NCBI GenBank assembly: GCA_005776395.1
Contig: SXPJ01000048.1
Location: 24,211 to 88,210 of the forward strand
Source: Bdellovibrionales bacterium
GTDB taxonomy: Bacteria; Bdellovibrionota; FAC87; UBA2466
Length of the DNA stretch: 64,000 nt
Direction: 5' to 3'
Shown here: positions 14,432-44,131 of the stretch, one piece after another
Position numbering within the stretch: the first letter of the stretch is position 1
How the letters are laid out: each line of letters begins with the position of its first letter
Translations under genes and position numbers: made by a program
Notes under the pieces: generated by a model
The model's database searches: none
Told to the model about the DNA's origin: nothing
The model's input: only the letters and a program-made list of their open reading frames with translations

Positions 14432-16461
14432 GAACCCATTTCCTCGGTCATTCCCCCTGAAAGTAAAGCGATAGCTGTTAATTGATTTAATCCATCAACT
14501 CCAGACCGCCAGTGAGGTTTTCTCCAGGCTCGCGTAATACTTCTCAGGTTAGGAAAAATATTTTTCGCAACAGCTTGAACCTCTTGATCTGTCGGATTGC
14601 CCTTAATCTCAACTAAGGTACGATTAATATCATTGGGCAAAACTTCAAAAGAGATTTTACAATTAGCGATCTCTTTTAGGGCCTTAAGTAGCGTTCCAAT
14701 AGGGGCATCATTCCAAAAAGTATATCTAACGATAAACTCGAAAGTACTCCCAGCCATGACCTCTTCACGCGTAACCTCTTTTTCCGGAAGATACTGAATA
14801 ACCCAATCAGCAAACTCTTTCTGAGGAGCAATGTGTTTTATAGAATCGGACTCTCTCTTTACAAAACTATCAACCACCTGTTTGGGTGAATGGCCTCGTT
14901 CATTCACGTCTCTTCGATACTTCCATGCAAATCTAACAATTTCATGAGGATCGATAAAAATTTTCAAATCAAACTTGGATCTAAGACCTCGTAAATAAAG
15001 GGTATGGAGCCCCTGAATAATTAGAGTCTTAGTCGGTTTGATCTCTTTAGCCTCTGAAAATATTCCCATGGCATGATCGTAATGAGATTGTAAAACTGTA
15101 GAGCCCTTAGCAAGTTGCAAAGCGTGGCTAGCCATCATTGATAAATGATTAGCTTTAGGATTAAGATGGGTATACTCCTGCCACTTCTCATGGTTACGTT
15201 CCCACTTATGATAATCATCTCCTTCGACGACTAGGGTGTTTTTAGAATTAAAGAGATCTTGAAAAATATGGCTTAGATGATTTTTTCCTGAACCACTATT
15301 TCCTGCAATTCCTAAAATTAAGGGACGAGCTCGTCCCTGAAGTTTAGCCTCTTGCTCAAGAACCAACTTCCAAATAACCAATAAGATTCCTGCCATAGCT
15401 GTTTGTAATAAAGTAAAGGCTACACCGGTCACCATTCCCTCTAAATGGCCCCCTAATTTGGAAAGGAGAACAAAGTTAACCATGTAAATAATCTGAAAGC
15501 CCCAAAAGAGTGCTTTCGAAACATTTAGATAAAGGGCAAAGAAAAGACAGAAGAAAGGGATAACCCAATAATACCAGCCAGGCATAGCATTGGTACCCAT
15601 AAGTAGGGCCCCAAACAAGGAAGCGGATCCAAAGATAAGTCCCCTTTCAGTAATTCTAGAGGAGACGCAAAGGCGTCCTAAAACAACTAGCACAATAAAA
15701 ACCCCTAAATAGACAACTTGCCCGGATCCAAAATTAAGGTTGGCAGCAAAAAGTCTCATAGCTTCAGGCGAAGTCGCGCTCGCATAAAACAACCTACCTG
15801 CATGGTAAACCGGAATAAAACCTAAAGCTGTAATTCCACTCCAAATCGCAAGCCACAATCCTATACAGGCTAATGCTTTCTTTGCGAAATTCTGATGCCA
15901 CAAATAGGCCAGAATAAAAGGGACTAGAACCACTACATGAAACTTAGACAAAGTCGCACAGGCCATTAATAGAGCTGAGGCTTCTATTTTTCGAAGCGTT
16001 AAAAAAATGAGAGATAAAATACACAACATCATAACCACTACATCTAACTGCCCGTGGATATAGGTAATAAAAATAGTAATGGGATTAAACCAATAGAGCA
16101 AAAAGAAAGACCTTCGTCTCTCTCCACAAATTCTCATCATTCCCCACAACAGAAAAACATCCGCCACTAATAGGGGAAGTTTCATTGCGATAAGACTTAA
16201 GGGTATATCGCCCATACTCATAGCACCCAAAATCTTAAAGGCTAAAAACTTAGGTAAAAATAAAATTCCAAATAAAAAGCTTCCATAAGGAAAAAAATGG
16301 GCCGGAGATAATGCCCAGGGATTTTGTCCTAAATGTAAAATTGAGGTGTCTATAAAAGGAATAAATAGCTCTTTTAAATACTGAGAACCGAAAAAGGGCA
16401 TCAGCCCCACACGAATCAAAACACCCCACCAAAACAGACGGTTTTTTAGCAGTTGTCTCAT
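14428..16461 (-). CDS. Fusion protein: N-terminal multi-TM GT-C-like (DUF2029 / mannosyltransferase-like) domain plus C-terminal uridine-kinase / phosphoribulokinase-family P-loop kinase domain
   Basis: About 12 transmembrane helices, then LILGIAGNSGSGKNHLS (P-loop) and VVEGDDYHK, typical of the PRK/UDK family. ATG at 16461 overlaps the GT2 stop (ATGA). Confidence 0.65.
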   Translation of the reverse strand: MRQLLKNRLFWWGVLIRVGLMPFFGSQYLKELFIPFIDTSILHLGQNPWALSPAHFFPYGSFLFGILFLPKFLAFKILGAMSMGDIPLSLIAMKLPLLVADVFLLWGMMRICGERRRSFFLLYWFNPITIFITYIHGQLDVVVMMLCILSLIFLTLRKIEASALLMACATLSKFHVVVLVPFILAYLWHQNFAKKALACIGLWLAIWSGITALGFIPVYHAGRLFYASATSPEAMRLFAANLNFGSGQVVYLGVFIVLVVLGRLCVSSRITERGLIFGSASLFGALLMGTNAMPGWYYWVIPFFCLFFALYLNVSKALFWGFQIIYMVNFVLLSKLGGHLEGMVTGVAFTLLQTAMAGILLVIWKLVLEQEAKLQGRARPLILGIAGNSGSGKNHLSHIFQDLFNSKNTLVVEGDDYHKWERNHEKWQEYTHLNPKANHLSMMASHALQLAKGSTVLQSHYDHAMGIFSEAKEIKPTKTLIIQGLHTLYLRGLRSKFDLKIFIDPHEIVRFAWKYRRDVNERGHSPKQVVDSFVKRESDSIKHIAPQKEFADWVIQYLPEKEVTREEVMAGSTFEFIVRYTFWNDAPIGTLLKALKEIANCKISFEVLPNDINRTLVEIKGNPTDQEVQAVAKNIFPNLRSITRAWRKPHWRSGVDGLNQLTAIALLSGGMTEEMGS

Positions 16462-20426: not shown

Positions 20427-20476
20427 ACCAAAAGGTACCACCAAAAGGCACCAAAAGGTACGGCTTTACTTTGGGT
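20427..20476. repeat. CCAAAAGG motif array ending in a 26-nt direct repeat (copy 1 at 20451..20476)
   Basis: caccaaaaggtaccaccaaaaggcaccaaaaggtacggctttactttgggt. The last 26 nt recur at 21051..21076 (25/26 identical). Confidence 0.8.
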
Positions 20477-20513
20477 TGGACGCACCTCCCCACCATCCCC
20501 CCAAGATATGGTT

Positions 20514-20981
20514 TTACAATAACAGTATCGAAACAGGGTAACTAATCCCCTCTCCAATAGTTATAGCCTCTTTATCTTCACCGATTAAAATAAATCGGTT
20601 TATATTCAGGGCAGTTCCAAGGAACTTATGCTCCTCTTTCTTCAGACCTCTTCCCTTTAAAGGTAGGACAATTTCAATACGATCGACTATCGCTTCAGGA
20701 ATTAAGTACTGCATCTGACGAAGCCCAGACTTAAGTTGCTCTAGGGCCTTAGTTACCAAACGTTCCTCTAATTTGAACTTAACCTCCCGGAGACGAAACA
20801 GAGTTCTATTTCCAATAGAGGTAGAACTAAAGAGATCGGGCAGGGACAATCCTTTTCCTAAACAAATATCGGTTTTGTAAGAGGGATTAAGATACTGAGC
20901 AAGTTGCTTGTCTCCAACTGAAAGAAATACCTCCCCTTCAGTCACTCTTAAAATATCAGCACAATAGGCTTCAGGGTTCAA
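20514..20981 (-). CDS. Hypothetical protein, flanked by 26-nt direct repeats
   Basis: 155-aa ORF with no recognisable domain. Confidence 0.45.
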   Translation of the reverse strand: MNPEAYCADILRVTEGEVFLSVGDKQLAQYLNPSYKTDICLGKGLSLPDLFSSTSIGNRTLFRLREVKFKLEERLVTKALEQLKSGLRQMQYLIPEAIVDRIEIVLPLKGRGLKKEEHKFLGTALNINRFILIGEDKEAITIGEGISYPVSILLL

Positions 20982-21050
20982 AGATCTCTCTCCTCACTAA
21001 TAATTGGGGCTAAGTTAAAGATGACATAAGGATTTTAATAAGTGAATATA

Positions 21051-21122
21051 CCAAAAGGTATGGCTTTACTTTGGGTAGTCCCGCCAAAAGTAAAGCCATA
21101 CCTTTTGATACCTTTTGGTACC
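21051..21122. repeat. Direct repeat copy 2 folded into a ~23-bp hairpin, plus a further CCTTTTGG copy
   Basis: ccaaaaggtatggctttactttgg - gtagtcccg - ccaaaagtaaagccataccttttg, then ataccttttggtacc. Confidence 0.8.
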
Positions 21123-21124
21123 TT

Positions 21125-22327
21125 ATGCCTGTAGTGCCCATTACCGCCAGCCCCCATGTCTTTTATATTCGCCCTGCTCCAGGTTGGTTGGAGTTGCTTC
21201 ATGAAGAGGTCATTTCTTTAGTTAAAACCCCTCTTCAAAAGTATAAGTTCGAACCTAAAATCACACTTTTAAAAGGAACTGTAAAACTTCACCGCTGCGA
21301 TTGGCGTCAGGGTTTAGAGATCATGCTTAGACTTACCACGGCTCACGATGTGGAGTGGATGATTCTAGAGTCTAAATGCAACCAGTGGACTGAGGTCGAT
21401 GCCATTTTAAATAGAGTCCCCTGGAATGACATTCTTCCCAATAGAGAGATTCCCATTCATGTCACTGCCGATGTTTCAAATGGATTTACCACCGCATCAG
21501 GAAAACTTCGGGAAAATCTTTGTCGGATTGCTAAGGTTAATCATGTCTCTGAAGGAGGGGTTCTCCGATTCAAAATTGAGTTACGATCAGATTTTTTGAG
21601 AATATCGGTAAGCCTTTGTGGAGATCCCTTATACAAACGTGGCTATAAGGCGAAATTACTGGCGACAGCGCCACTTCCAGAACATCAAGCCGCAGCTTGC
21701 ACCCGATGGGTATTGGCCGGTGTCGAACCAACTCATCCCGTGAGCTCTGTTTTTATCCCCTTTGCGGGTTCGGGAACATTTGGATTTGAATCTCTCATTG
21801 TTCTTTCTGGAGCTGGACCTGGAGCCTTTTTAAGGCAGTTCTCATGCGATATATTCCCCTGCACCTCAGAAGCCACAATGCGCTTTTTAAGACGGAAAAT
21901 TTCAGAGAAACTTACCTCAACCCCACACCCACGGCTTCTATTTAATGAATTAAATTCGGATGCCGCTTCAACTCTCAAAGAGAACGCAGCCGCATTTTCA
22001 ATAAATTCCAAATTTGAAATCATTGAAGGGGATATTTTTGAAATTCAGCCCAACTTTTCCCCAGAGGGAAACATCCTAATCTTATTAAACCCACCCTATG
22101 GAAACAGACTCGCAAAAAACTCCTCTATTTCAGCTCTCTACAATCGCCTTGGAATCTATATTCAAAAACTCTCAGAGAGTTATTCAGGTCGAATCATTGG
22201 AGGTTGTATTTGTCCAGATGCTCATTCTTGGCGGAGTTTTCTCAATGGGCTTAAAACCCCAACCCAGGAAACCCATCACTTTACCCATGGAGGGAAAGAG
22301 ATGCGCCTAGTACGATGGCAAGGATAA
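21125..22327 (+). CDS. THUMP-domain RNA (guanine-N2) methyltransferase, RlmL-like
   Basis: FAGSGTFGFESLIV (SAM motif I-like) and LNPPYGNRL (motif IV NPPY) in the expected order. The track start at 21071 is TTG inside the hairpin repeat; ATG at 21125 is preferred. Confidence 0.6.
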   Translation: MPVVPITASPHVFYIRPAPGWLELLHEEVISLVKTPLQKYKFEPKITLLKGTVKLHRCDWRQGLEIMLRLTTAHDVEWMILESKCNQWTEVDAILNRVPWNDILPNREIPIHVTADVSNGFTTASGKLRENLCRIAKVNHVSEGGVLRFKIELRSDFLRISVSLCGDPLYKRGYKAKLLATAPLPEHQAAACTRWVLAGVEPTHPVSSVFIPFAGSGTFGFESLIVLSGAGPGAFLRQFSCDIFPCTSEATMRFLRRKISEKLTSTPHPRLLFNELNSDAASTLKENAAAFSINSKFEIIEGDIFEIQPNFSPEGNILILLNPPYGNRLAKNSSISALYNRLGIYIQKLSESYSGRIIGGCICPDAHSWRSFLNGLKTPTQETHHFTHGGKEMRLVRWQG

Positions 22328-22695: not shown

Positions 22696-22923
22696 TGATT
22701 TTAGACTAAAATAAAAATAACGGGTCTGGCTACAAAAACTAGAATTACTTTCTTTGAATTATTTAAATTAAATCAATAAGTTATAATTACCCATTAAGCG
22801 TCTTAAAATTCAATTTTATCCCCCCCTATTTGATTCGTATTGCGTTCCATTTGGAAACCCCCACAAAACATTCGCAATTTTTCTTCGCTTTTAATCAGCC
22901 CCAAGGAACTCTATAGTAAAAAG

Positions 22924-23313
22924 ATGAGACCTTTACGAGTAACGCGAAAGCCACTGGACCCTGAGTTTCAAAAAACAGAAGTTCTTCGCATCTCTCAGCT
23001 TATTTCATCAACTGTTCATCCTTTAGCGATTTATAGTTTTGGTTCGGCAGCGGAAAATAAAGCCACGGATCAATCCGATTTTGATTTTTTAATAGTAGTA
23101 GAAGATTCTGAAAATTTGACTAAGGCAAGAATCAAATTGAGAAAGCTCATGCCTCTATCTCAATTCCCAGTTGATCTTATTTGGAAAAAAAGAACAGAGT
23201 TTTTAACCCAACGAGAGATAGGTGGGATTGCTTGGGTTGTCTGGGAAGATGGTAACTGTACTTTTCATACTAACTCCAAGGAGTTTATCAATGACAAAAA
23301 AACGAAAATTTAA
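22924..23313 (+). CDS. Minimal nucleotidyltransferase (MntA-like antitoxin) of an MNT-HEPN pair
   Basis: IYSFGSAAENKATDQSDFDFLIVVE is the GS...SD.D nucleotidyltransferase signature. Confidence 0.7.
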   Translation: MRPLRVTRKPLDPEFQKTEVLRISQLISSTVHPLAIYSFGSAAENKATDQSDFDFLIVVEDSENLTKARIKLRKLMPLSQFPVDLIWKKRTEFLTQREIGGIAWVVWEDGNCTFHTNSKEFINDKKTKI

Positions 23314-23689
23314 AAAAGAATATTCTGTGGAGTTACTTCGAATTGCCGAGGGAGATCTGCAGACTGCTAGAGGCCTTATTCAAGTTAAGATGGGAAGACG
23401 GGAGAATATTTTTTTCCATCTAGAGCAAGCCATAGAAAAGGCTCTCAAAGCAGTTCTCTGCTCACGAGAAATTGCGACTCCTTTTGTTCATGAAATGGGA
23501 ATTGTATTAGAGCTATTTCCAGCCGACTTAGAAGTTCCTCGTTCTGAGGAGATGTTAGATTTAGGACAGTTTGCTACTATTCGTCGTTATGAGGAAGATA
23601 TTGCTGATCTCACGGATGAAGAGGTTCAGGCTACTCTTGATTTAGCTGTTCAAACCTTGGATTGGGCTAAAAATAATTTGGGAAAATAG
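23291..23689 (+). CDS. HEPN-domain protein (HepT-like toxin)
   Basis: RRENIFFH R-x(4-6)-H motif inside a helical HEPN-like region. Overlaps the MNT gene by 23 nt. Confidence 0.7.
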   Translation: MTKKRKFKKEYSVELLRIAEGDLQTARGLIQVKMGRRENIFFHLEQAIEKALKAVLCSREIATPFVHEMGIVLELFPADLEVPRSEEMLDLGQFATIRRYEEDIADLTDEEVQATLDLAVQTLDWAKNNLGK

Positions 23690-23758: not shown

Positions 23759-24100
23759 TCACTCGAGGGCTTTGCATAATTTGTAAAGGTGACGAGCGAG
23801 TTTGTCCGTGATTTCATTCAATTCAGCGTTATGAATCTCAAGTAATTGAAGAGCTCCTATACTTTCACGAAAACTGCCAAGAGCAATACGGTAGAATCTT
23901 GCTCTGTCTTTGGGACTGGGTTTAGCCGAGCCACTTCTGCAGATAGGCGAAGGTTCTTCCAGATCGCTTTTGGGAGTCACAGAGAAGTACAAGCCATTAT
24001 TCAACTTGAACCTGATGAATTTAACGAAAAGGAACGAGATACTTTGGACCCTCTAGCTGCCAGCGTCTTCAAACTCTTGCGCAATTGCCTGGCGCCTTGA
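23759..24100. pseudogene. Two overlapping, oppositely oriented C-terminal fragments of four-helix-bundle (PF05635 / Avd-like) genes
   Basis: Minus ORF: ...KDRARFYRIALGSFRESIGALQLL. Plus ORF: ...ADRRRFFQIAFGSHREVQAIIQL...SVFKLLRNCLAP*. Both match the C-terminal half of PF05635 (f.~fL.iA.GS..E). The N-terminal halves are absent. Confidence 0.45.
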
Positions 24101-24252: not shown

Positions 24253-25452
24253 TTAAGGAATATCCATCCTAACTTTTCCAGCAGCAATCGGTTTAGCGGC
24301 AAACTTAACTTTCAACTCATCGGGTCCGTTACATGCCATTTCAGTTGCTTTAGAGAACTTAAAAGCGTTGATATTGTTAACGCAAGCTTCTAATGGCCCT
24401 TCAATAAGCAAAGTACCGTCCGAATTTTCAACGTGAAGCCATACCTCTTCTGCATCAATCACAAGATCTTTAACGCACTCTCCACCTTTAAGAGTAGACC
24501 AGCCTTTTGAAATTACCTGTCCACTGAATTCAGCATCTTTCCAAGCAATAGCAACAAGAATACTATTTTCTTCACTTCGAGAGTTGCAAATGTCCATCAT
24601 TGAACGAGCTACATAAGCTTCATTAGTTTTAAAATGATGCCCATATTCTCCAGAGGTCGGAAGTGCCTCTTTTTGGAAATACTCCATTTTCAATTTATTT
24701 AACGAACAGTCCATAATTTCAGCATCTGGATGATTAAACCCATCATAATCATTGGTGCACAAGGGGACATTACCTCGCCATTTATGAGATCCATTAGATG
24801 AAGTAGCGAAATAGAGAATTTCACTAGCCTCCTCTTTTCGATCTACCTCAAAACATTTTCCAGGTTTAGCCATCAACCAACCATTGACTGTGGTTTTAGC
24901 ATCGCTCGATCTCTTTTGGGCAGACGAAATAAAAATATCTTCCGAGGTATCATTACAAAACTTTACACCCCCTCCTACCTTAGTCGCATCGGAAAGTTTA
25001 AATTCGATCTTAGGAATTTCTTCTCCTGTGGCAGTTCTTAAATTAGCTATTGAAAACTCTTTAAAGGGCCTAATCTCCTGTTCCGATTCATTACAGGAAA
25101 TCGTACCCGCATTCTCTAAGTTATAAATATCGACTGTGTTTATACAAAGCTTGGTCTCACCTAGCCATTGATATATTTTAGAGAATGATTGGGCGTAAAC
25201 TAGAATTTTATCCCCTGATATTGGAAATGACAGCTCTGAGCATTTATTCGGTTCAATTCCCCACCAACCTCGAGCCATTAAATTGGCATTCTCATCTGGC
25301 TTATAAGCTACTGAAATAAATATTTTTCCTTCATCTCTATTGCAAAAATTTATCTTTGTTTCAATGTTAGAGTCTGTTGTTGCAGCCAGTAACAGAGGAG
25401 TATAAAACCCCACACCAAGAAGCGCCAATCCAAAGACAATCTTTTTTTTCAT
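24253..25452 (-). CDS. Exported protein with three Cys-bracketed ~110-aa repeats (DUF1036-like, tentative)
   Basis: Signal peptide MKKKIVFGLALLGVGF. Recurring C..D...IFISVAY....ARGWW.I.P.KC modules. Confidence 0.5.
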   Translation of the reverse strand: MKKKIVFGLALLGVGFYTPLLLAATTDSNIETKINFCNRDEGKIFISVAYKPDENANLMARGWWGIEPNKCSELSFPISGDKILVYAQSFSKIYQWLGETKLCINTVDIYNLENAGTISCNESEQEIRPFKEFSIANLRTATGEEIPKIEFKLSDATKVGGGVKFCNDTSEDIFISSAQKRSSDAKTTVNGWLMAKPGKCFEVDRKEEASEILYFATSSNGSHKWRGNVPLCTNDYDGFNHPDAEIMDCSLNKLKMEYFQKEALPTSGEYGHHFKTNEAYVARSMMDICNSRSEENSILVAIAWKDAEFSGQVISKGWSTLKGGECVKDLVIDAEEVWLHVENSDGTLLIEGPLEACVNNINAFKFSKATEMACNGPDELKVKFAAKPIAAGKVRMDIP

Positions 25453-25571
25453 GGTTAAACTCCCCAATAAAAATAGTTAAAACGACTCTAGAGAGAGGAG
25501 TAAAGCAAGCTGCATGCCATTTGAATTTTATTTTTATAACTGATAAAGAAAGGCTCGATTTTCCACTTCAT

Positions 25572-43834: not shown

Positions 43835-43917
43835 ATCTTGCCCAAAGGCCGGCAGCGCTCCCGCCCTAAGAATGATAAAATTGAACGGCCAATTCGTAAC
43901 ATCACCACCAAGATTTA

Positions 43918-43982
43918 TTTTCTTTCCTTTAAAAAATTAGTTTCCGCCCTTGGTGAAAACTAATTTTTTAAAGGAAAGAAAA
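43918..43982. promoter_or_regulatory. Perfect 23-bp inverted repeat with 19-nt spacer (operator-like palindrome)
   Basis: ttttctttcctttaaaaaattag - 19 nt - ctaattttttaaaggaaagaaaa, in a divergent promoter region. Confidence 0.5.
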
Positions 43983-44131
43983 TGAATGATTTTAGAACTT
44001 ACGAATTAGCCGTTCAATTTTATCGCTTGGTTTCGAAATTTAAAGTGCCCTGTCATCTGAAGGGGCAATTGCAATGGGCCGCTTCAAACGAGTTCTTAAA
44101 AAAGATTCACTCTCCTTATCCGAATTAACAC
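43982..44131 (+). pseudogene. N-terminal fragment (49 codons) of a four-helix-bundle (PF05635 / Avd-like) gene
   Basis: MNDFRTYELAVQFYRLVSKFKVPCHLKGQLQWAASNEFL... follows the PF05635 N-terminal helix pair (QlrRAa.SI.NIAEG region), then stops. Confidence 0.45.

What the first reader, a model, noticed from the sequence alone, without database searches (positions are those of the whole stretch)
20427..21122. Small gene flanked by 26-nt direct repeats, a 23-bp hairpin and CCAAAAGG motif arrays
The hypothetical gene 20514..20981 is bracketed by ccaaaaggtaYggctttactttgggt (20451..20476 and 21051..21076; 25/26 identical). The second copy pairs with an inverted copy to form a ~23-bp stem, and three extra CCAAAAGG units precede the first. 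The hairpin overlaps the annotated (TTG) start of the rlmL-like gene. This looks like a cassette or miniature-element insertion signature, or an att-like duplication, rather than ordinary intergenic sequence.
Basis: seen in the sequence. Interest (0 to 1): 0.5.

Follow-up and report, generated by a model that had tools for sequence, protein, structure and literature searches.

The report
REP/REPIN repeats flanking a small nuclease gene
The repeats around this small gene are copies of a short palindromic repeat family (REP/REPIN) that is scattered through related predatory-bacterium (Bdellovibrio-like) genomes and is tied to a dedicated transposase there, so they are ordinary genomic "junk-like" mobile repeats sitting in two neighbouring intergenic gaps, not the borders of a gene cassette.

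Summary
The 26-mer occurs at 20451-20476 and 21051-21076 (25/26). A third, inverted copy gives a 27-bp hairpin at 21049-21110. Short ACCAAAAGGYAC units precede the full copies.

The cassette/att reading is not supported. The core 21-mer CAAAAGGTAYGGCTTTACTTT is a dispersed repeat. It has 40 exact-match loci in about six related Bdellovibrionota MAGs. It occurs as singletons, as inverted doublets forming hairpins, and once in tandem.

In four related genomes a REP-associated tyrosine transposase (RAYT) gene is flanked by this motif in inverted orientation. These RAYTs match NCBIfam NF047646 and PDB 4ER8. That is the hallmark of a REP/REPIN–RAYT system. The partial 5' units recur at other copies, including the RAYT flanks.

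The enclosed 155-aa gene is a genuine, rare PD-(D/E)XK-fold protein. Five homologue loci have it next to the same rlmL-like methyltransferase gene, and none of the homologue loci carries the core 21-mer. It is therefore a resident gene, not cargo.

The true start of the rlmL-like gene is ATG 21126, so the hairpin lies upstream of it.

Verdict: one REP singleton plus one REPIN. This is a new member of a known kind and of low interest. No RAYT lies in the 64-kb window, and the rest of this genome could not be scanned.

The parts
20427..20449 (+). Two partial 5' REP units (ACCAAAAGGTACC, ACCAAAAGGC) stacked in front of the full unit
   Evidence: (family D1). The same kind of 8-13 nt partial 5' duplication is seen at other family members (L014, L019, L025, L049) and at RAYT-flanking REPs (L059, L050).
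20450..20481 (+). REP singleton (full unit ACCAAAAGGTACGGCTTTACTTTGGGT...). It lies between the stop of the small gene and the start of the HAD-hydrolase gene, both on the minus strand
   Evidence: This copy carries the CTTTGGG variant and by itself folds no better than shuffles (z about 0).
20514..20981 (-). Resident 155-aa gene (TTG start, GAGGAG Shine-Dalgarno) encoding a PD-(D/E)XK-fold protein. It is enclosed by the repeats but is not part of the repeat element
21049..21081 (+). REP unit, left arm of the REPIN (inverted doublet)
   Evidence: (I2).
21083..21110 (-). REP unit in inverted orientation, right arm of the REPIN
   Evidence: (I2). The same (+,-) convergent doublet layout is seen in L016, L017, L019, L020, L031, L042 and L043.
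21108..21122 (-). Partial 5' REP unit (GGTACCAAAAGGTAT) in front of the minus-strand REP
21126..22327 (+). rlmL-like (UPF0020) methyltransferase gene with corrected ATG start. The REPIN lies in its upstream or 5' leader region
   Evidence: Pfam PF01170 and NCBIfam RlmKL-like hits. The N-terminus is conserved with L002 and L029 from ATG 21126. The annotated TTG at 21071 reads through the REP and would encode KSKAIPFD.

Best explanation
The repeats are members of a REP (repetitive extragenic palindrome) family belonging to a REPIN–RAYT system of a freshwater Bdellovibrionota lineage. The basic unit is about 27-31 nt, (N)ACCAAAAG-GTAYGGCTTTA-CTTTTGGT(GG). It is an imperfect palindrome with a conserved 11-nt centre.

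The window holds one singleton with two stacked partial 5' units (20427-20481). It also holds one inverted doublet, a REPIN, that forms the 27-bp hairpin and has one partial 5' unit (21049-21122). They occupy the two intergenic gaps on either side of a resident PD-(D/E)XK-fold gene. The 'direct repeats bracketing a gene' are therefore two independent REP copies that happen to be in the same orientation.

Mechanism, inferred from what is established for E. coli TnpA_REP and Pseudomonas REPINs: a single-copy Y1 (HUH) transposase, RAYT, recognises the folded single-stranded REP or REPIN. It cleaves and rejoins it, which disperses copies into extragenic sites.

Shown here: the family, its arrangements, and its RAYT association in relatives.

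Inferred: that a RAYT acts in this genome, that the partial 5' units are by-products of RAYT processing or slippage, and any effect of the REPIN on expression of the flanking divergent genes.
For: 1. Dispersal. The 21-mer CAAAAGGTAYGGCTTTACTTT has 40 exact-match loci. Nearly all are in five or six related MAGs: LLD_334 about 16, K_Offshore_120m_m2_196 about 14, UBA2466, Bdellovibrio sp. ZAP7 and samp_4435_maxbin_723.

2. Arrangements. Singletons, (+,-) inverted doublets with 7-22 nt spacers, and one tandem pair are all present.

3. Location. Most copies are intergenic. About 20 of 59 units start 4-8 nt after the stop codon of the upstream same-strand ORF.

4. Palindromy. Typical units fold as 9-11 bp stems with an 11-nt loop, z from -3.2 to -5.3.

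5. RAYT.
- The ORFs L037:6862-7578 and L050:1068-1829 hit NCBIfam NF047646 'REP-associated tyrosine transposase' over the whole profile (E = 5e-16 and 7e-14).
- Both ORFs hit Pfam Y1_Tnp weakly.
- For the L037 ORF, the only PDB match is 4ER8 TnpArep, with the HUH and Y motifs aligned.
- Homologues of the L037 ORF are named 'REP element-mobilizing transposase RayT' by JGI.

6. RAYT flanks. In four independent RAYT loci the gene is flanked by this REP in inverted orientation, + upstream and - downstream (L037, L050, the P0039 loci L059-L064, and L065). Partial 5' duplications are present there. L065 carries a co-diverged REP variant.

7. The gene is not cargo.
- Five homologue loci place the small gene divergently next to the UPF0020 gene: L002, L008, L010, L011 and L053.
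- None of the homologue loci examined carries the core 21-mer.

8. Rfam gives only generic hairpin matches below threshold.
Against: - No RAYT gene lies in the 64-kb window. The rest of this genome could not be scanned, because the source genome was not among the genome-contig hits. REP abundance and a cognate RAYT are therefore shown only for relatives.
- Copy numbers seen are modest, 4-16 exact 21-mers per MAG, compared with the hundreds in classic REPIN hosts.
- The stem of the unit shows no covariation beyond chance. Palindromy rests on the conserved consensus only.
- The window's left copy does not fold better than shuffles.
- The RAYT hits are below the curated NCBIfam and Pfam cut-offs (52-59 bits against 80; 18 against 23).
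- The REPIN sits between divergent genes, which is an atypical place for REPs.
Confidence: 0.85

Rival explanations
1. Composite mobile cassette. The PD-(D/E)XK gene is cargo of a 0.7-kb element bounded by inverted REP ends (20440-20481 and 21078-21119). It would be mobilisable in trans, or it inserted here with an att-like duplication.
For: The 42-nt inverted-repeat relation is 86% complementary. The layout REP(+)...gene...REP(-) is the same as around the RAYT genes. The rlmL-like orthologue in the REP-bearing MAG K_Offshore is preceded by tRNA-Pro instead of the nuclease gene.
Against: Homologues of 53-61% identity sit divergently next to the same UPF0020 gene in five other loci, and none carries the core 21-mer. 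Other homologues sit in unrelated contexts without repeats. There is no target-site duplication outside the arms. The motif occurs at 40 loci without this gene.
Confidence: 0.04
2. Regulatory palindrome. The hairpin, or dyad, in the divergent promoter region is an operator or 5'-leader structure that controls the rlmL-like gene and/or the nuclease gene. It might be a co-opted and anciently retained REPIN.
For: L002, L011 and L053 carry a 22-nt-arm palindrome at the same intergenic position. It aligns to the window REPIN: AAGGTAC...CTTTTG is shared in both arms. In L053 both arms changed together, AGCTTC/GAAGCT to GGGTTC/GAACCT. A sigma-70-like site at 20977-21004 (+) would place the REPIN in the 5' leader, 15 nt before ATG 21126.
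Against: The motif is overwhelmingly found at 3' ends of unrelated genes, so it is not locus-specific. The orthologous intergenic regions in L008, L010, L054 and L056 have no palindrome. The alignment to the L002-type palindrome is only about 65% identical and could be fortuitous. No regulator was identified.
Confidence: 0.1
3. Transcription terminator or mRNA-stabilising stem-loops, acting as ordinary gene-end structures rather than mobile repeats.
For: Many family members abut stop codons. A weak terminator-like stem plus T-run is called on the minus strand at 20452-20434, just downstream of the small gene. From established knowledge, E. coli REPs can stabilise upstream mRNA.
Against: The stems are A+T-rich and lack a proper U-tract. 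The REPIN lies between divergent genes, where no terminator is needed. Identical 21-mers at 40 loci with a conserved loop, plus the RAYT association, are not explained by terminator function alone.
Confidence: 0.1

Closest known systems
REP/BIME sequences and REPINs with their RAYT (TnpA_REP) transposases in Escherichia coli, Pseudomonas and Stenotrophomonas (PMC3116915, PMC3337134, PMC5581495, PMC3479197)
   Same: The unit is a short imperfect palindrome that is dispersed in extragenic space. It occurs as singletons and as inverted doublets that form long hairpins. A single-copy Y1/HUH transposase gene is flanked by the same repeats in inverted orientation. That gene sits in conserved synteny (a 304-aa ORF upstream and a roughly 260-aa ORF downstream), which suggests vertical inheritance. 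REP and RAYT co-diverge (L065).
   Different: The host phylum differs (Bdellovibrionota). The unit has an A+T-rich stem and a strictly conserved 11-nt centre, GTAYGGCTTTA, instead of the 5' GTAG-type head. The RAYTs are longer (about 238-253 aa, against about 165 aa in the solved structure 4ER8). They score below the curated family cut-offs. Copy number appears low, in the tens. Stacked partial 5' units of 8-13 nt recur. Many copies abut stop codons, and at least one lies in frame inside a gene.
Rickettsia palindromic elements (RPE) and Neisseria Correia elements (from general knowledge)
   Same: Both are small palindromic repeats. They can sit at gene ends, or in frame inside coding regions, as with the REP inside the E2 acyltransferase linker of L045 and L046.
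   Different: RPE and Correia elements are more than 100 bp long, and Correia elements have TIRs and a TA duplication. Neither has a known RAYT partner. The element here is a unit of about 30 nt with a RAYT.
Integron attC gene cassettes, and MITEs or composite transposons
   Same: In all of these, repeats with hairpin potential lie on both sides of a small promoter-proximal gene.
   Different: There is no gene presence/absence linked to the repeats, no target-site duplication, and no attC-type R/L core sites visible in the sequence. The repeats occur mostly without any enclosed gene.

Membership tests
REP / REPIN–RAYT system | The unit is a short (about 20-40 nt) imperfect palindrome | tested here: met
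   Typical family members fold as 9-11 bp stems, z from -3.2 to -5.3. The consensus is ACCAAAAG...CTTTTGGT. Two caveats apply: there is no covariation beyond chance, and the window's left copy is degenerate (z about 0).
REP / REPIN–RAYT system | Many dispersed copies, mainly extragenic, within one genome | tested here: inconclusive
   This is met in relatives. There are about 16 and about 14 exact 21-mer loci in two MAGs, and most are intergenic. For the window's own genome only 64 kb is available. It holds three full copies, all at this locus.
REP / REPIN–RAYT system | Inverted doublets (REPINs) that form long hairpins | tested here: met
   The window doublet at 21049-21110 gives -25.6 kcal/mol, z = -9.3. 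The same (+,-) doublets occur in L016, L017, L019, L020, L031, L042 and L043.
REP / REPIN–RAYT system | A cognate RAYT (Y1/HUH transposase) gene flanked by the same REPs in inverted orientation | tested here: inconclusive
   This is met in four related genomes (L037, L050, L059-L064, L065), shown by NCBIfam NF047646, PDB 4ER8 and the flanking REPs.
REP / REPIN–RAYT system | RAYT-dependent cleavage or mobilisation of the REP | not testable with these tools
   This needs biochemistry or a mobilome assay.
Gene cassette / composite element carrying the 155-aa gene | The gene and the bounding repeats are present or absent together, with a target-site duplication | tested here: not met
   Homologue loci have the gene without the core 21-mer. 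The repeats occur at 40 loci without the gene. No duplication flanks 20427 and 21122.
PD-(D/E)XK nuclease superfamily (the enclosed 155-aa protein) | Restriction-endonuclease-like alpha/beta core with a conserved D...(D/E)xK motif | tested here: met
Known RNA families (Rfam) | A match reaching the family gathering score | tested here: not met
   There are only sub-threshold generic hairpin matches to plant or animal miRNA precursors and to DicF.

The most novel reading that the evidence does not exclude
The REPIN in the divergent promoter region might be an ancient, orthologously retained copy. The L002, L011 and L053 lineages have an alignable palindrome at the same spot, and in L053 both arms changed together. 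It could have been co-opted as a regulatory dyad or 5'-leader structure for the conserved pair of a PD-(D/E)XK gene and an rlmL-like methyltransferase gene. Alternatively, the inverted REPs might make the small nuclease gene a RAYT-mobilisable unit.
Probability: 0.1. Interest if true: 0.5.

Novelty: new member of a known kind. Interest (0 to 1): 0.2.

Why it matters
Mostly this matters for annotation.

- The repeats should be labelled REP/REPIN rather than being read as cassette borders.
- The start codon of the rlmL-like gene should move from TTG 21071 to ATG 21126, because the annotated start reads through a REP.

More broadly, the analysis documents a REPIN–RAYT system in a freshwater Bdellovibrionota lineage. 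It has some unusual traits:

- a conserved 11-nt centre;
- stacked partial 5' units;
- frequent abutment to stop codons;
- an in-frame copy inside an E2 acyltransferase linker.

It could serve as a comparative case for how REPIN populations persist outside the Gammaproteobacteria. The enclosed gene defines a rare, uncharacterised PD-(D/E)XK family that is repeatedly paired with an rlmL-like methyltransferase gene.

Tried and rejected
- Protein family searches. Pfam, NCBIfam, PADLOC and PHROGs found no family for the 155-aa protein. A PDB sequence search found nothing either.
- IS200/IS605-like element. I considered this because the unit is about 700 bp, has a roughly 150-aa ORF and has subterminal hairpins. 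I rejected it. The ORF has a PD-(D/E)XK fold, not an HUH fold.
- Restriction-modification pair. GGTACC sites and an NPPY methyltransferase next door suggested this. I rejected it. The methyltransferase is RlmKL/Trm14-like, and the nuclease homologues also occur without it.
- Covariation in the REP stem. The observed pairing equals the shuffled controls, so no structural claim is made from covariation.
- Rfam. Only chance hairpin hits appeared.
- More degenerate REP copies in the window. Two 3-mismatch hits lie at 14460 and 24430. The hit at 24430 lies inside ORF 24253-25467, and neither was treated as a REP copy.
- Literature. A search for REP elements in Bdellovibrio found nothing relevant.
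- Identifying the window's own genome or its RAYT. The genome-contig scan did not return the window's locus, and the RAYT look-ups could not be tied to the same sample.

Full report
**1. The observation**

- The 26-mer matches at 20451-20476 and 21051-21076. An inverted copy lies at 21083-21108. Shuffles of the window give none.
- The second direct copy and the inverted copy form a hairpin with 27-nt arms, 93% complementary, with an 8-nt loop. As single-stranded DNA it folds at -25.6 kcal/mol, z = -9.3.
- The unit ACCAAAAGGYAC occurs three times in a row at 20427-20461. It occurs again at each end of the hairpin. That is 7 matches against 0.37 expected.
- The bare 8-mer CCAAAAGG is not significantly enriched window-wide.
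- The region 20440-20481 is a 42-nt inverted repeat of 21078-21119.

**2. The enclosed gene is real and resident**

ORF 20514-20981 (minus strand, TTG start preceded by GAGGAG) has 12 full-length homologues of about 155 aa. Only 26 cluster representatives exist among 1.8 billion proteins. No Pfam, NCBIfam, PADLOC or PHROG family matches.

In L002-L004, L008, L010, L011 and L053 the homologue lies divergently next to the same UPF0020 (rlmL-like) methyltransferase gene, as in the window. These homologues are 53-61% identical to the window protein. More distant homologues lie in other contexts.

None of these loci carries the core 21-mer. The gene is therefore older at this position than the repeats. 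One REP-bearing relative, L029, has the rlmL-like orthologue preceded by tRNA-Pro and no nuclease gene. The gene pair is therefore not universal.

**3. The repeats are a dispersed family**

An exact scan of 185,579 species-representative genomes for CAAAAGGTAYGGCTTTACTTT returned 40 loci. Nearly all are in five or six related Bdellovibrionota MAGs. Chance expectation for a pattern with 20 specified bases in this collection is about one (my estimate).

Extraction of the flanks shows that conservation is confined to about 27-31 nt: (N)ACCAAAAG-GTAYGGCTTTA-CTTTTGGT(GG).

Three arrangements are seen:
- singletons;
- convergent (+,-) doublets with 7-22 nt spacers (L016, L017, L019, L020, L031, L042, L043 and the window);
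- one tandem pair (L038).

Typical units fold as 9-11 bp stems around an 11-nt loop, z from -3.2 to -5.3. The window's left copy carries CTTTGGG and does not fold better than shuffles. A pair count on 54 units shows no covariation beyond shuffles. Palindromy is therefore a property of the conserved consensus and is not independently supported.

Most copies are intergenic. About 20 of 59 begin 4-8 nt after the stop codon of the upstream same-strand ORF. Partial 5' duplications like those in the window occur in L014, L019, L025 and L049.

**4. The partner enzyme**

Two loci have motif copies 0.76-0.8 kb apart in inverted orientation. The ORFs between them, L050:1068-1829 and L037:6862-7578, are 65% identical. 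The evidence that they are RAYTs is as follows.

- Both match NCBIfam NF047646 'REP-associated tyrosine transposase' across the whole profile. E is 7e-14 and 5e-16, at 52-59 bits, below the 80-bit cut-off.
- Both match Pfam Y1_Tnp weakly.
- For the L037 ORF, the only PDB match is 4ER8, E. coli TnpArep. The HUH motif (NHLHLI against EHMHCI) and the tyrosine motif (YVYRNPVRAGL against YIYINPVKHGW) are aligned.
- A database search with the L037 ORF found 175 relatives. Many are from Bdellovibrionota MAGs, many carry PF01797, and several are named 'REP element-mobilizing transposase RayT' by JGI.

In four independent RAYT loci (L037, L050, the P0039 loci L059-L064, and L065) the gene is flanked by this REP, + upstream and - downstream. 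Partial 5' units are present there as well. L065, whose RAYT is 58% identical, carries a co-diverged REP variant.

The RAYT gene sits in conserved synteny. These are the defining traits of REPIN–RAYT systems as described in PMC3116915, PMC3337134 and PMC5581495. The biochemistry is described in PMC3479197.

**5. Interpretation of the window**

The left feature (20427-20481) is a REP singleton with two stacked partial units. The right feature (21049-21122) is a REPIN with one partial unit. The '26-nt direct repeats' are the singleton and the left arm of the REPIN. The '42-nt terminal inverted repeat' is the singleton against the right arm.

There is no target-site duplication outside them. The exact 600-bp spacing is incidental.

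The ORF start at TTG 21071 reads through the REP and would encode KSKAIPFD. The conserved protein begins at ATG 21126. The REPIN therefore lies 15 nt upstream of the rlmL-like start and about 70 nt upstream of the nuclease gene start, between divergent genes. That is an unusual place for REPs, and it leaves room for an effect on expression. A sigma-70-like site at 20977-21004 would put the REPIN in the 5' leader. This is inference only.

**6. Loose ends**

L002, L011 and L053 have a 22-nt-arm palindrome at the same intergenic spot. It aligns at roughly 65% identity with the window REPIN. In L053 both arms changed together. It may be a diverged orthologous REPIN, a different REP family or an operator, and I could not decide between these.

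No RAYT lies in the window. The window's own genome was not among the scanned representatives. Abundance and RAYT presence in this organism are therefore extrapolated from relatives that are about 70% identical in the rlmL-like gene.

**7. Verdict**

The feature is a REP singleton plus a REPIN of a REPIN–RAYT system. It is a new member of a known kind and of low general interest.

Noticed in passing
L045:6007-6027 and L046:1503-1523: The exact REP 21-mer lies in frame, antisense to the motif, inside a 2-oxoacid dehydrogenase E2 acyltransferase gene of two genomes. It encodes ...ESKAIPFD... in the linker just before the E3-binding domain. This recalls the in-frame Rickettsia palindromic elements.
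   Followed up: partly
L048:3213-3559, L035:63-409, L033:7002-7349, L026:203-223: A conserved 290-aa protein with no Pfam or NCBIfam family (it starts MEIF[IV]GIDQTGA) has a REP immediately upstream of its start codon in four genomes. In three of them (L033, L035, L048) a REP-like 21-mer with 1-3 mismatches lies about 326 nt downstream, inverted and inside the coding region, where it encodes KGKPYLWG.
   Followed up: partly
L013-L052 (for example L016, L018, L022, L023, L027, L031, L040, L047, L050): About a third of REP units begin 4-8 nt after the stop codon, often TAA, of the upstream same-strand ORF. REPINs often fill the whole gap between convergent genes. Whether this reflects target preference or selection is not resolved.
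   Followed up: partly
window 20427-20449 and 21108-21122; L014, L019, L025, L049, L050, L059: Stacked partial duplications of the REP 5' end (8-13 nt...CAAAAGGYAC) precede many full units, including the REPs that flank RAYT genes. The mechanism is unknown. It could be RAYT cleavage and rejoining, or slippage.
   Followed up: partly
L002:2744-2800, L011:585-645, L053 about 1925-1990: A conserved 22-nt-arm palindrome, GGTACCAGCTTCCTTTTGATAC-ccg-inverted, lies in the intergenic region between the rlmL-like gene and the nuclease gene in another lineage. In L053 both arms changed together. It is alignable to the window REPIN.
   Followed up: partly
L015, L018, L027, L029, L044 (K_Offshore_120m_m2_196 MAG): A second repeat...GACCGCTACCTTTTAAGCTTAAYGGGAGACTGACACCC..., has an exact 19-mer core that recurs in all five loci. 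In four of them (L015, L018, L027, L029) it lies 20-45 nt from a REP unit; in L044 it lies about 140 nt away.
   Followed up: no
window 43913-43987: The longest hairpin in the window has 36-nt A+T-rich arms, 92% complementary, with a 3-nt loop. Its right arm contains the ribosome-binding region and the ATG (43983) of an ORF beginning MNDFRTYELAVQFYRL.
   Followed up: no
window 23759-24100: Two overlapping ORFs on opposite strands (23759-24004 minus, 23846-24100 plus) each hit the C-terminal half of Pfam 23S_rRNA_IVP weakly. This suggests a head-to-head pair of truncated four-helix-bundle genes.
   Followed up: no
window 22840-23689: An overlapping gene pair encodes a nucleotidyltransferase (NTP_transf_2 / Polbeta) and a HEPN protein, in the toxin-antitoxin-like MNT/HEPN arrangement. 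It lies just downstream of the SUI1-like gene.
   Followed up: no
L041:51-152: A REP unit lies only a few nucleotides (4 nt) from one end of a tRNA-Val gene.
   Followed up: no
L050, L059-L065: The RAYT gene sits in conserved synteny across genomes. A 304-306 aa ORF lies upstream and a roughly 253-265 aa ORF lies convergently downstream. This is consistent with a single-copy, vertically inherited RAYT.
   Followed up: partly
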